Shown here in pieces: positions 11,873 to 13,540 of a DNA stretch of 64,000 nucleotides. The stretch is from Candidatus Helarchaeota archaeon (GTDB lineage: Archaea; Asgardarchaeota; Lokiarchaeia; Helarchaeales; RDOG01). The stretch covers positions 544,001-608,000 of the forward strand of contig JAHPZH010000002.1 in NCBI GenBank assembly GCA_019058315.1, given 5' to 3'. A program made the position numbers and the translations under genes. Below the pieces are notes generated by a model. The model made no database searches. It had not been told where the DNA came from and was given only the letters and a program-made list of their open reading frames with translations. Numbering within the stretch: position 1 is the first letter of the stretch; each line of letters starts with the position of its first letter.

Positions 11873-13540
11873 TTGTTAAATAATGAATCAGCAATAACCT
11901 GCAATTTCTGTGGAAGTTTAAATCCAATTTATTATTGTAATAAATGTAATGTGGTTTTTTGCAGTAAGTGTAAAAAGGAAGAATTAAACAATCTGGTATT
12001 CTGCGCATATTGCGGAATTACTATTGCAAAAATCCAAAATAATGATCTAATGTCCGAACAAAAATATAAATGTCATAAATGCAGATCCAACAAATTTGTT
12101 ATTGGTCAAAAAAGGGTTAGACTATGTCCAGGTTGTAATCAAAGTAATATTTCAACTATTGCTGAGAAAAAACGTAATTTAATTGAGTCATCACGTAAAC
12201 TAATTTTTAGGTTCAGAGATGGTTACAAAGAATTATACACTTTTCTGACAAAATTAAGCCGTGTTAGAAATAAATTAATTGAACTCAGAACAAGCGGGTT
12301 TTTCCATGACCCTAAAATTGAATCATTTATCTTAAAATTGATCAGATCTATTCCACTTACAAAAAAACAAATTATGTTTAGGGTTGAACAAGATTATAAA
12401 ATTCTCAAATTACCTCTACAGAAATTTTTAGATCCATCGAAATGGACTCCTGATAAATTTTTCTTGCTTGAGGCATCTCTAAATCAAATTAAAGAGACCA
12501 TGGATGATTTTAGAAGATTTATTGACGAATTAATTGAGACTTCGAATAAGTTTTTAATAATCGCTACGAAAAAAATTAAAGCTGTGTCTTATTATAAAAA
12601 TATATATGATAAATTTGAAGGACTATTAGAAATATTACCAGGAGAATTACCTATATGCGCATTTAAAAATGTCAAATTTAAAAAATGTTCGTTTCAAGAT
12701 TTGAAAAGAAGTAAAGGTAATTTATTTTTGACTGATCGTCGTATGATTTTTCTTCGAAGGAAAGGATTAATCTTCAGAAAATACATACATCTGTTTGATT
12801 TCTTCTTAGAAGGATTTGAAAAGGTTGAATTAGTTGGAAGAGTATTTAAAAAATTGAAATTTTCATTAGAAGAGGGTAATATTAAATTTGCTGCACCTAA
12901 AAAAGTGATGCGAGCTATAAAGAATTATTTCACTATTTCCATTAATTTTGAGAAATATCGTGTAGAAGGTGAAATACCGACAGAAATTCTAGAACCTATA
13001 GATTTGAATTTATTGGATTTAAAACAAAAAATTGAATTAATCATTACTTCTTTATTAAGTTTAACACCAACTAGTTACCAAATAACAAACCCAAATCAAA
13101 TTAGTATTACATCACCAAGTGTTCAATTTAATAACTTTGAAAGAAATGATAATAACGAAAATCCTAGCAATAATATTGTATTATTTTTGCATAAAATTCA
13201 AGGGGAAGAGTTTTCATTAAGTAATACTCTTCAAAATCTAGAAGATAAATTTAATCAAGGGATCATCTCTTCTGAAGAATATTTAAAACAATTTCGTCAT
13301 TTACAATCTGAATTATTTTCAATAAGAAAAAGAATTGACCAGATCCAAAGACAAATTAATAATGATTTACCTTATAATCCAATATCGAGACCAATTAGTC
13401 AAAATTTAAGAATAGACCAAAATCCAATACAAATTAATTCAAATTTGAGAAATGTAGAAAATACAAGATGTAACAATGATGATTCTGATGAAAAAAATAA
13501 ATCTAAACCAGTTCCAATAAATATCTTCGATATGTATTGA
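11873..13540 (+). CDS. Multi-Zn-finger / coiled-coil / PH(GRAM-GLUE)-like / steadiness-box-like protein
   Basis: Six CxxC pairs in first 90 aa; GNLFLTDRRMIF PH-like motif; EEFSLSNTLQNLEDKFNQGIISSEEYLKQFRHLQSELF; GAGGTG SD at 11862, TTG start. Confidence 0.65.
   Translation: MLNNESAITCNFCGSLNPIYYCNKCNVVFCSKCKKEELNNLVFCAYCGITIAKIQNNDLMSEQKYKCHKCRSNKFVIGQKRVRLCPGCNQSNISTIAEKKRNLIESSRKLIFRFRDGYKELYTFLTKLSRVRNKLIELRTSGFFHDPKIESFILKLIRSIPLTKKQIMFRVEQDYKILKLPLQKFLDPSKWTPDKFFLLEASLNQIKETMDDFRRFIDELIETSNKFLIIATKKIKAVSYYKNIYDKFEGLLEILPGELPICAFKNVKFKKCSFQDLKRSKGNLFLTDRRMIFLRRKGLIFRKYIHLFDFFLEGFEKVELVGRVFKKLKFSLEEGNIKFAAPKKVMRAIKNYFTISINFEKYRVEGEIPTEILEPIDLNLLDLKQKIELIITSLLSLTPTSYQITNPNQISITSPSVQFNNFERNDNNENPSNNIVLFLHKIQGEEFSLSNTLQNLEDKFNQGIISSEEYLKQFRHLQSELFSIRKRIDQIQRQINNDLPYNPISRPISQNLRIDQNPIQINSNLRNVENTRCNNDDSDEKNKSKPVPINIFDMY

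What the first reader, a model, noticed from the sequence alone, without database searches (positions are those of the whole stretch)
11873..13540. Single protein combining ESCRT-I steadiness-box-like, GLUE/GRAM-like PH and B-box-like Zn fingers
Seen: 13202-13350 EEFSLSNTLQNLEDKFNQGIISSEEYLKQFRHLQSELFSIR aligns without gaps to TSG101 (from memory) EENAIEDTIFYLGEALRRGVIDLDVFLKHVRLLSRKQFQLR. 12617-12950 has GLLEI..E...NVKF..GNLFLTDRRMIF, like Vps36 GLUE (GLLEINETL..GVRI..GTLLLSTHRLIW). The N-terminus has 12 Cys in six CxxC pairs, then a coiled coil. Established: steadiness boxes assemble ESCRT-I; GLUE binds lipid/ubiquitin in ESCRT-II. Inference: an alternative ESCRT-I subunit or adaptor using a PH domain instead of UEV, encoded outside the canonical ESCRT cluster.
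Basis: partly seen in the sequence, partly recalled or inferred. Interest (0 to 1): 0.8.

Follow-up and report, generated by a model that had tools for sequence, protein, structure and literature searches.

The report
Asgard zinc-PH-steadiness-box ESCRT adaptor

Summary
It has 12 family-wide conserved Cys in six CxxC pairs, a three-helix bundle, a confidently modelled PH domain and a C-terminal helical hairpin. The family profile of that hairpin finds yeast Vps23 as its best solved relative (E 4.7e-7).

The architecture and the reading "likely ESCRT-I component" were published as Znr_CC_PH_SB (asCOG cog.011556; Makarova et al. 2024, PMC10936438). Membership is supported by full-length homology across Asgard lineages. 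A Lokiarchaeial homologue also lies in the same gene order that the paper lists for cog.011556.

In 27 of 27 sampled genomes from other Asgard families, the homologue lies tail-to-tail with an ESCRT-III gene. In this genome and its close relatives it does not. It lies on another contig than the ubiquitin-ESCRT cluster, upstream of a ribophorin I/OST1 gene, and carries an extra C-terminal tail.

The PH domain is GRAM/GLUE/bPH-like; the best Pfam family across members is bPH_3. Binding to ESCRT-I could not be shown. No Vps28 was recognisable in this genome.

This scan has found and resolved the same family on other genomes several times. Verdict: observation confirmed; new member of a known kind; moderate-to-low interest.

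The parts
11862..11867 (+). GAGGTG Shine-Dalgarno-like site, 5 nt upstream of the TTG start
   Evidence: Read directly from the sequence. The N-termini of homologues start at the same position.
11873..13540 (+). Complete ORF of 555 aa, a member of the Asgard Znr_CC_PH_SB family
   Evidence: Homologues of 60-80% identity occur in Helarchaeota-, Hodarchaeota- and Promethearchaeota-labelled MAGs. 90 clusters at 50% identity match with E<=1e-10.
11894..12022 (+). First zinc module, aa 8-50: eight Cys spaced C-x2-C-x8-C-x2-C-x4-C-x2-C-x10-C-x2-C. This is either a B-box/RING/zf-HIT-like cross-brace or two zinc ribbons.
   Evidence: All eight Cys are conserved family-wide. Similarities are weak: zf-B_box in 6/10 members (best E 0.0027), ANCHR-like B-box in 3/10, RNF4 RING at E 0.0012 and the HIT1 zinc finger at 0.1. 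Which Cys pair together was not resolved.
12065..12148 (+). Zinc ribbon, aa 65-92 (Cys67/70 and Cys85/88)
   Evidence: C85, P86 and C88 are invariant in A1. Cys67, 70, 85 and 88 are present in 63-68 of 68 members. The model shows a beta hairpin at 75-84.
12158..12634 (+). Helical stalk or bundle, aa 96-254 (helices 96-140, 147-183, 193-254)
   Evidence: AlphaFold2 model, pLDDT mostly 80-90.
12635..12958 (+). PH domain of the GRAM/GLUE/bPH type, aa 255-362, with the conserved motif G-x-L-F-x-T-x-x-R-x-x-F
   Evidence: Domain model with pLDDT 87. MTMR2 PH-GRAM Z 13.9; EAP45/Vps36 GLUE Z 11.3-11.5. Best solved relative by profile is the Vps36 GLUE domain, E 0.0096. Pfam over 45 members: bPH_3 30, Vps36_ESCRT-II 13, GRAM 10.
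13013..13162 (+). Short conserved helix (aa 381-395), then a poorly conserved, low-confidence linker (aa 398-430)
   Evidence: pLDDT 25-32 over the linker.
13163..13363 (+). Steadiness-box helical hairpin of the Vps23 type, aa 431-497
   Evidence: In this genome the best non-self match of the hairpin profile is the genome's own UEV-Vps23 (E 8.2e-10).
13364..13537 (+). Disordered N/Q-rich C-terminal tail, aa 498-555. It ends in the conserved motif P-V-P-(I/L)-N-(I/L)-F-D (aa 546-553, nt 13508-13531).
   Evidence: The tail and motif occur only in the close clade (P0001-P0009, and in degenerate form in P0014). Most other family members end right after the hairpin. Function unknown.

Best explanation
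The gene encodes a member of the Asgard-specific Znr_CC_PH_SB family (asCOG cog.011556). My confidence in membership is about 0.95.

The most likely mechanism is inferred, not shown:
- The C-terminal Vps23-type steadiness-box hairpin packs against the hairpins of other steadiness-box proteins. Here the clearest candidate is the UEV-Vps23 encoded in the ubiquitin-ESCRT cluster on contig C10. This would make the protein an accessory or alternative subunit of an ESCRT-I-like headpiece.
- The GRAM/GLUE-like PH domain holds the complex on the membrane, or contacts ubiquitin as the Vps36 GLUE domain does.
- The three zinc sites offer a further binding surface for a partner or cargo.
- The rigid helical bundle acts as a spacer.

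The complex would then help to place ESCRT-III, whose gene is the family's nearly constant neighbour in other Asgard lineages.

In this genome's lineage the gene has left the ESCRT cluster. It appears to be a separate transcription unit, with intergenic gaps of about 200 bp on each side, and it gained a C-terminal tail. Nothing suggests that the core function changed.
For: Shown by tools:
- Architecture and conserved Cys.
- Steadiness-box homology.
- PH fold.
- Full-length family in Thor-, Loki-, Hel- and Jordarchaeia-labelled MAGs. 205 of 301 genomes of the phylum match at E<=1e-5; the weakest of these may match one domain only.
- A Lokiarchaeial homologue (L048) lies in the order PepD, L35Ae, homologue, MetE, Snf7. 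This is the order listed for cog.011556 in Lokiarchaeum GC14_75.
- In 27 of 27 genomes from other families the homologue is convergent with a Snf7 gene. The gap is at most 141 bp in 22 of them and 0.6-1.7 kb in 5. The pair often closes a Vps22-Vps25-Vps4-Snf7-Snf7 block. In G118 it closes a complete cluster from E1 through Vps23 and Vps28 to Snf7.

From the literature:
- The same architecture was read as a likely ESCRT-I component with a membrane-binding PH domain (PMC10936438).
- Steadiness boxes mediate Asgard Vps23-Vps28 assembly in vitro, and Asgards lack Vps37 (PMC9192718).
Against: No interaction has been shown for any member of this family.

For this protein alone the Vps23_core score is below Pfam's cut-off (22.7 against 26.8 bits).

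The hairpin profile also picks up designed coiled-coil peptides at E about 1e-5, though over one helix only. Part of the signal is therefore compositional.

This genome has no recognisable Vps28.

The gene is not linked to ESCRT genes here or in its closest relatives.

At the Pfam level the PH domain is closest to bacterial-type bPH_3 rather than GLUE. Archaeal ligands for such a domain are unknown.
Confidence: 0.6

Rival explanations
1. The protein is a direct ESCRT-III recruiter, or a Vps36/CdvA-like bridge, rather than an ESCRT-I subunit. The PH and Zn module binds membrane and ubiquitin as the Vps36 GLUE domain does. The hairpin serves self-association or contact with ESCRT-II or ESCRT-III. 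The protein would then act at the ESCRT-II level, which in Asgards lacks Vps36.
For: The constant neighbour is an ESCRT-III gene, not vps23 or vps28. The best solved sequence relative of the PH profile is the Vps36 GLUE domain. In one lineage (L053 in G053; P0058) the same Zn-bundle-PH module is fused to EAP30/Vps22-36 winged helices instead of the hairpin, at the same locus. This gives a Vps36-like domain order. Both key papers report no Vps36 in Asgards. The literature also notes steadiness-box/CdvA similarity.
Against: The hairpin is most like Vps23/TSG101. The fusion is rare: one 50%-identity cluster. The GLUE similarity is marginal, and bPH_3 scores better across the family.
Confidence: 0.25
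2. In this lineage the protein has been re-purposed for a function tied to the translocon and N-glycosylation machinery. It would pair with the cytoplasmic helical domain of the ribophorin I/OST1 encoded immediately downstream.
For: The order target, OST1, DUF354, GT4 is conserved in relatives of 62-69% identity, whereas the upstream genes differ. OST1 residues 459-520 match the hairpin profile at E 1.3e-4 among 12,371 ORFs. The solved cytoplasmic domain of MK-D1 OST1 (8whn) matches at 1.6e-4. The clade-specific C-terminal tail arose in the same lineage.
Against: The OST1 match is no better than matches to designed coiled coils. The OST1 cytoplasmic domain is a 4-helix bundle with a known ribosome-binding role (PMC11417166). 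A 220-bp spacer separates the two genes. In G029 the ribophorin gene lies 142 kb from the homologue. Local synteny among close relatives may simply be inherited.
Confidence: 0.07
3. The N-terminal eight-Cys module is a RING/B-box-like E3 domain, and the protein ubiquitylates cargo at the membrane.
For: The family profile matches the RNF4 RING at E 0.0012, and weakly matches B-box and BRE1 RING. The Cys spacing fits a C4C4 cross-brace. A ubiquitin system is present in this genome.
Against: All matches are below family thresholds. The literature reads the module as zinc ribbons. The cluster already has its own small RING protein. Zinc-ligand topology was not resolved here.
Confidence: 0.05
4. 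The C-terminal hairpin is a generic SHOCT or coiled-coil hairpin, and the protein has nothing to do with ESCRT.
For: SHOCT gives a weak hit (E 0.14). Coiled-coil peptides appear among the profile hits. The gene is not ESCRT-linked in this genome.
Against: Vps23, TSG101 and VPS37B are the only natural full-hairpin hits. The genome's own UEV-Vps23 is the best paralogous match. Homologues in 27 of 27 other genomes sit next to ESCRT-III.
Confidence: 0.03

Closest known systems
Asgard Znr_CC_PH_SB (also written Znr_PH_CC_SB), asCOG cog.011556; Makarova et al. 2024, mBio (PMC10936438)
   Same: Same domain order: three zinc sites, helical region, PH domain, C-terminal steadiness box. Restricted to Asgard archaea. 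Full-length homology to the family, including a Lokiarchaeial copy in the gene order published for cog.011556.
   Different: This copy, like those of its close relatives, lies outside the ESCRT cluster and upstream of OST1. It carries an extra tail of about 55 aa that ends in P-V-P-(I/L)-N-(I/L)-F-D.
Eukaryotic and Asgard Vps23/TSG101 (ESCRT-I)
   Same: C-terminal steadiness-box hairpin. It aligns without gaps over about 55 residues to the yeast Vps23 headpiece.
   Different: There is no UEV domain. The hairpin is separated from the helical bundle by a PH domain and a disordered linker. This genome has a separate, ordinary UEV-Vps23.
Vps36/EAP45 GLUE domain (ESCRT-II)
   Same: PH fold of the GRAM-like type with the shared G-x-(I/L)-F-L-T-x-x-R-(I/L)-I motif region. 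It is the best solved sequence relative of the PH profile. Structural Z is 11.3-11.5. Zinc fingers occur in the same protein, as in yeast Vps36.
   Different: No EAP30 winged helices in this protein. The zinc sites are N-terminal, not inserted in the PH domain. Similarity is marginal, and bPH_3 scores better across the family. A rare fusion of this module to EAP30 exists elsewhere.
Myotubularin PH-GRAM domains and bacterial bPH_3 domains
   Same: MTMR2 PH-GRAM is the closest structure (Z 13.9, rmsd 2.9 A over 105 residues, 21% identity). bPH_3 is the most frequent Pfam match (30 of 45 members, best E 6.7e-8).
   Different: These are single domains in unrelated proteins, with no link to ESCRT.

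Membership tests
Znr_CC_PH_SB (asCOG cog.011556) | Three N-terminal zinc-binding units (six CxxC pairs) | tested here: met
   12 Cys are present and conserved in 58-68 of 68 members.
Znr_CC_PH_SB (asCOG cog.011556) | Helical or coiled-coil region, followed by a PH domain | tested here: met
   Helices at 96-254. The PH model has pLDDT 87, with PH-fold matches of Z 11-14.
Znr_CC_PH_SB (asCOG cog.011556) | C-terminal steadiness box | tested here: met
   Vps23_core is the top Pfam family (9/10 members, best E 4.1e-7). The family profile finds yeast Vps23 at E 4.7e-7. This single protein scores below the Pfam cut-off.
Znr_CC_PH_SB (asCOG cog.011556) | Sequence homology to a recognised member | tested here: met
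   The Lokiarchaeial homologue in L048 matches the family profile at E 6.3e-45 and this protein at 9e-31. It lies in the order PepD, L35Ae, X, MetE, Snf7, as listed for cog.011556 in Lokiarchaeum GC14_75. The published protein itself was not aligned, because its sequence was not at hand.
Znr_CC_PH_SB (asCOG cog.011556) | Location in an ESCRT gene neighbourhood | tested here: not met
   The target is on C5 and the ESCRT cluster on C10. The feature is met in 27 of 27 other genomes. It is typical of the family rather than a defining sequence feature.
ESCRT-I Vps23/TSG101 | N-terminal UEV domain | tested here: not met
   No UEV or UQ_con match in this protein. The genome's UEV-Vps23 is a different gene.
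ESCRT-I Vps23/TSG101 | Assembly with Vps28 (and Vps37 or a second Vps23) through the hairpin | tested here: inconclusive
   No Vps28 could be identified in this genome, so that pair could not be set up. The single complex job, run against the genome's own Vps23, gave no verdict (see Tried and rejected).
ESCRT-II Vps36 | GLUE-type PH domain | tested here: inconclusive
   Vps36_ESCRT-II scores E 0.12 for this protein and matches 13 of 45 members, best 6.3e-6. The profile against solved chains puts Vps36 first at E 0.0096. By structure it is tied with many other PH domains.
ESCRT-II Vps36 | Tandem winged-helix (EAP30) core | tested here: not met
   No EAP30 match in this protein. It is present only in the rare fusion variant L053/P0058.
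SHOCT domain | Match to PF09851 at family threshold | tested here: not met
   E 0.14, 12.4 bits against a cut-off of 27. Only 1 of 10 members matches at E<=0.1.
B-box / RING cross-brace zinc fingers | Family-level match and interleaved zinc ligation | tested here: inconclusive
   zf-B_box scores E 0.018 here, best 0.0027 in homologues, all below the cut-off. RNF4 RING scores E 0.0012 by profile. Ligand topology could not be read from the model output.

The most novel reading that the evidence does not exclude
The Zn-bundle-PH module of this family is the Asgard forerunner, or functional stand-in, of the Vps36 GLUE domain, which Asgards are reported to lack. Normally it is coupled to ESCRT-I-type hairpins through its steadiness box. 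In one lineage (L053/P0058) the same module is instead fused, at the same locus, to Vps22/36-type winged helices. That gives a Vps36-like protein, which suggests how eukaryotic Vps36 could have been assembled. The copy studied here would be a displaced version with an added C-terminal motif.
Probability: 0.2. Interest if true: 0.6.

Novelty: new member of a known kind. Interest (0 to 1): 0.3.

Why it matters
ESCRT-I and ESCRT-II of Asgard archaea are a model for how the eukaryotic membrane-remodelling machinery arose. Which protein tethers them to the membrane, and what stands in for the missing Vps37 and Vps36, is still open. This family is a good candidate and is untested experimentally.

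This particular copy adds little. It shows that the gene can leave the ESCRT cluster in one order while keeping all its domains, and that this clade gained a conserved C-terminal motif. The architecture and its interpretation are already in the literature, so the finding does not change the field.

Tried and rejected
- Complex prediction. The hairpin (alignment A3) was folded with the C-terminal hairpin of this genome's UEV-Vps23 (A4). The result was no verdict (score 0.00, controls not run). This counts neither for nor against binding.
- Search for Vps28 in this genome. Pfam VPS28 gave nothing at E<=1e-3 and only weak partial hits at E<=10. phmmer with the bona fide Vps28 of G118 gave nothing below E 0.15. 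Another note of this scan flagged a 254-aa protein between uS17 and uL14 as Vps28-CTD-like. It gave no Pfam support, and the atlas search was uninformative. The 134-aa coiled-coil protein upstream of vps23 showed no steadiness-box or Vps28 signal.
- Whole-model Foldseek returned DH-PH and Sec7-PH tandems. With TM at most 0.29 and rmsd about 20 A, I read this as a generic helical bundle plus PH domain, not as evidence for a GEF.
- Synteny with the window's neighbours outside the close clade. None was found by BLAST in 13 loci. Ribophorin I was detectable by Pfam in only 1 of 5 other genomes, and there it lies 142 kb away.
- The pattern scan of genome contigs returned only two loci. The genome search was used instead.
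- The steadiness-box-like match in the OST1 cytoplasmic domain was not accepted as homology, because designed coiled coils score as well.
- No second copy of the Zn, bundle or PH modules exists in this genome. The 557-aa EAP30 protein at C5:1093640-1095313 (L004:253-1926) is unrelated in its N-terminal part.
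Full report
**The gene.** The window is AT-rich (about 25-35% GC). Its closest protein matches come from MAGs labelled Helarchaeota, Hodarchaeota or Promethearchaeota. The ORF at 11873-13540 (+) encodes 555 aa. It starts at a TTG that lies 5 nt after GAGGTG, and about 200 bp of AT-rich spacer flank it on each side. Homologues begin at the same residue. No ORF of 60 aa or more lies on the opposite strand. It is a real, conserved gene: there are eight homologues of 60-80% identity and two of 36-38%. 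A profile search of 1.84 billion representatives found 159 clusters at E<=1e-3 and 90 at E<=1e-10. Most of these are full-length proteins of 480-900 aa.

**Anatomy.** An AlphaFold2 model built from ten sequences (mean pLDDT 68.6) shows the following:
- small beta elements over residues 1-94;
- three long helices at 96-140, 147-183 and 193-254;
- a beta-sandwich with a closing helix at 260-357;
- a short helix at 381-395;
- a disordered linker;
- a helical hairpin at 431-497;
- a disordered tail.

The 12 Cys form six CxxC pairs. Each is present in 58-68 of 68 family members, and the remainder are N-terminally truncated entries. The first eight Cys have the spacing of a B-box1, C4C4-RING or zf-HIT cross-brace. 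They give only sub-threshold matches to those families. The published description calls them zinc ribbons. I could not resolve which reading is right.

**The hairpin.** For this protein alone, Pfam Vps23_core is the best family but falls below its cut-off (E 1e-4, 22.7 against 26.8 bits). Nine of ten close homologues match it, best E 4.1e-7. The whole-protein profile finds the yeast ESCRT-I core chain of Vps23 at E 3.1e-5. A 47-member profile of the hairpin alone was searched against 177,635 solved sequences. It finds three yeast Vps23 entries at E 4.7e-7 to 3.3e-6, human TSG101 at 9.3e-4 and VPS37B at 0.046. These alignments are ungapped over both helices and the turn.

One caution applies. 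Designed coiled-coil peptides score about 1e-5 over a single helix, so part of the score is compositional. Against the 12,371 ORFs of this genome, the best non-self match of the same profile is the genome's own UEV-Vps23 (E 8.2e-10). SHOCT scores E 0.14. I accept the hairpin as a Vps23-type steadiness box.

**The PH domain.** Folded alone with 45 sequences, it gives pLDDT 87, and above 93 over the first 110 residues. An exhaustive structural comparison puts the MTMR2 PH-GRAM domain first (Z 13.9, 105 residues, rmsd 2.9 A, 21% identity). The mouse EAP45 and yeast Vps36 GLUE domains score Z 11.5 and 11.3, within a crowd of other PH domains. Foldseek agrees. By sequence, the domain profile's best solved relative is the yeast Vps36 GLUE domain, but only marginally (E 0.0096). 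Scanning the 45 domains one by one against Pfam gives bPH_3 in 30 (best 6.7e-8), Vps36_ESCRT-II in 13 (best 6.3e-6) and GRAM in 10. The domain therefore belongs to the GRAM/GLUE/bPH group of PH domains. "GLUE-like" is fair, but "bPH-like" is at least as accurate.

**What is already known.** Makarova et al. [quoted passage not shown] They name it Znr_CC_PH_SB (asCOG cog.011556). They report it as absent from eukaryotes, present in several Asgard lineages and probably ancestral. They read it as a likely ESCRT-I component whose PH domain is expected to be membrane-associated, by analogy with Vps36. Their table lists the Lokiarchaeum GC14_75 member between L35Ae and MetE, next to a Vps20-type gene.

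I found a Lokiarchaeia-class homologue (L048) that matches the family profile at E 6.3e-45. It sits in exactly that order: peptidase C69, L35Ae, homologue, MetE, Snf7. This ties my family to cog.011556. Named members come from Thor-, Loki-/Prometh-, Hel- and Jordarchaeia-labelled MAGs. In a sample of 301 genomes of the phylum, 205 have a match at E<=1e-5, although the weakest of these may match one domain only.

**Gene linkage.** I fetched the surroundings of homologues in 27 genomes from other families of the phylum. I searched them with this genome's own ESCRT proteins. In all 27, a Snf7-family gene lies at the 3' end of the homologue in convergent orientation. The gap is at most 141 bp in 22 genomes (including one 4-nt overlap) and 0.6-1.7 kb in five. 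In many genomes the pair closes a Vps22-Vps25-Vps4-Snf7(-Snf7) block.

In G118 it closes a complete supercluster. This comprises E1, E2, ubiquitin, RING, a coiled-coil protein, UEV-Vps23, a full-length Vps28 (Pfam E 1.3e-12), Vps22, Vps25, Vps4 and two Snf7 genes. These genomes are related to one another, so they are not independent trials. Even so, the linkage spans many families and is strong circumstantial evidence for an ESCRT role.

**What is different here.** This genome's ubiquitin-ESCRT cluster is on contig C10. It holds E1, E2, ubiquitin, RING, a 134-aa coiled-coil protein, UEV-Vps23, Vps25, Vps4, two Snf7 genes, HerA and a third Snf7. The target is on C5. Its neighbours are:
- upstream, a Roadblock-Ras-like GTPase fusion and a 360-aa winged-helix protein;
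- downstream, a ribophorin I/OST1 homologue, DUF354 and a GT4 glycosyltransferase.

The downstream block is conserved in relatives of 62% and 69% identity, whereas the upstream genes differ. Two more distant relatives of the Helarchaeota lineage (L018, labelled Helarchaeota Hel_GB_A, and L021, from a same-order genome) also lack an adjacent Snf7 in the flanks available. The same close clade, and essentially only it, carries a tail of about 55 residues after the hairpin. The tail ends in P-V-P-(I/L)-N-(I/L)-F-D. Most other members stop within a few residues of the hairpin. So the gene was displaced from the ESCRT cluster in this lineage. All domains and conserved residues are intact.

**What could not be shown.** No Vps28 is recognisable in this 94%-complete assembly by Pfam or by search with a bona fide Asgard Vps28. 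The one complex job, hairpin against the genome's own Vps23 hairpin, returned no verdict and is not evidence either way. The genome has further steadiness-box-like proteins: a 370-aa protein with a C-terminal hairpin, a 270-aa protein with an N-terminal one, and an Arf-like GTPase with a weaker C-terminal match. This agrees with the reported diversity of such proteins in Loki- and Helarchaeia.

**Side observation bearing on the mechanism.** In genus g40 (G053; representative P0058, 601 aa) the gene at the orthologous place, convergent with Snf7, encodes the same Zn module, helical bundle and PH domain. Its PH domain matches Pfam Vps36_ESCRT-II at E 1.8e-4. It ends in an EAP30/Vps22-36 winged-helix region (E 1.8e-11, above threshold) instead of the hairpin. 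PH first and EAP30 last is the domain order of Vps36, which both key papers could not find in Asgards. The fusion is rare, and I could not check whether it has been described under another asCOG. It keeps open the reading that this module works at the ESCRT-I/II junction, as the Vps36 GLUE domain does.

**Verdict.** This copy is a new, displaced member of a known family. The scan has met the same family on other genomes several times, and those follow-ups reached the same conclusion. I reached mine from the literature and my own searches before reading those notes.

Noticed in passing
window 13761-15545 (+): A ribophorin I/OST1 homologue (594 aa; Pfam E 1.8e-8) lies directly downstream. Its cytoplasmic C-terminal helical region (aa 459-520) matches the steadiness-box profile at E 1.3e-4, and so does the solved MK-D1 OST1 cytoplasmic domain 8whn (1.6e-4). 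Designed coiled coils score as well, so homology is not established. The order target, OST1, DUF354, GT4 is conserved in close relatives (L032, L033).
   Followed up: partly
L053:9401-11206 (+) (genome G053; also protein P0058): A 601-aa protein at the orthologous place, convergent with Snf7. It has the same Zn module, helical bundle and PH domain, but a C-terminal EAP30/Vps22-36 winged-helix region instead of the steadiness box. This is a Vps36-like domain order in an Asgard archaeon.
   Followed up: partly
window 13364-13537 (+): A clade-specific disordered tail ends in a conserved P-V-P-(I/L)-N-(I/L)-F-D motif. It is present in the close homologues (degenerate in P0008 and P0014; absent from P0010 and P0011), whereas nearly all other family members end within about 20 residues of the hairpin. 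It may be a short linear binding motif. Partner unknown.
   Followed up: partly
window 9629-10576 (+) and 10591-11673 (+): A Roadblock/LC7 domain is fused to a Ras/Rab-like GTPase (Ras E 1.5e-48). 14 nt later comes a 360-aa protein with a C-terminal winged helix (HTH_47). The pair is also upstream of the homologue in L033, but not in L032.
   Followed up: partly
G000:C6:298895-300007 (-), G000:C5:117825-118637 (-), G000:C11:121575-123296 (-): Further steadiness-box-like hairpins in this genome: a 370-aa protein with a Pro-rich linker and a C-terminal hairpin (E 6.7e-7); a 270-aa protein with an N-terminal hairpin (5.8e-6); and an Arf-like GTPase with a long charged linker and a C-terminal hairpin-like end (0.004).
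   Followed up: partly
G000:C10:97000-116500 (L015): The canonical ubiquitin-ESCRT cluster has a UEV-Vps23, Vps25, Vps4 and three Snf7 genes, but no Pfam-recognisable Vps28 or Vps22. The EAP30 proteins lie elsewhere (C3:249813-250181 and C5:1094888-1095250), each next to an SPFH/Band 7 gene. By contrast, G118 (L040) has a complete cluster with a full-length Vps28.
   Followed up: partly
L041, L042, L044, L045 (Vps22 genes of family f10): The N-terminal roughly 100 residues of these Vps22 homologues match the N-terminal (steadiness-box) half of the G118 Vps28 (E 1e-6 to 1e-9). This agrees with the published Vps22-steadiness-box fusion.
   Followed up: no
window 3919-9360 (-): An 1813-aa protein with a signal peptide, several near-identical repeats of about 190 aa, very many N-x-S/T sequons and a C-terminal membrane anchor. 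Two more ORFs of over 1800 aa lie at 20558-26005 (-) and 55270-61062 (-). They are probably N-glycosylated surface proteins, and the first two lie close to the OST1/GT4 block.
   Followed up: no
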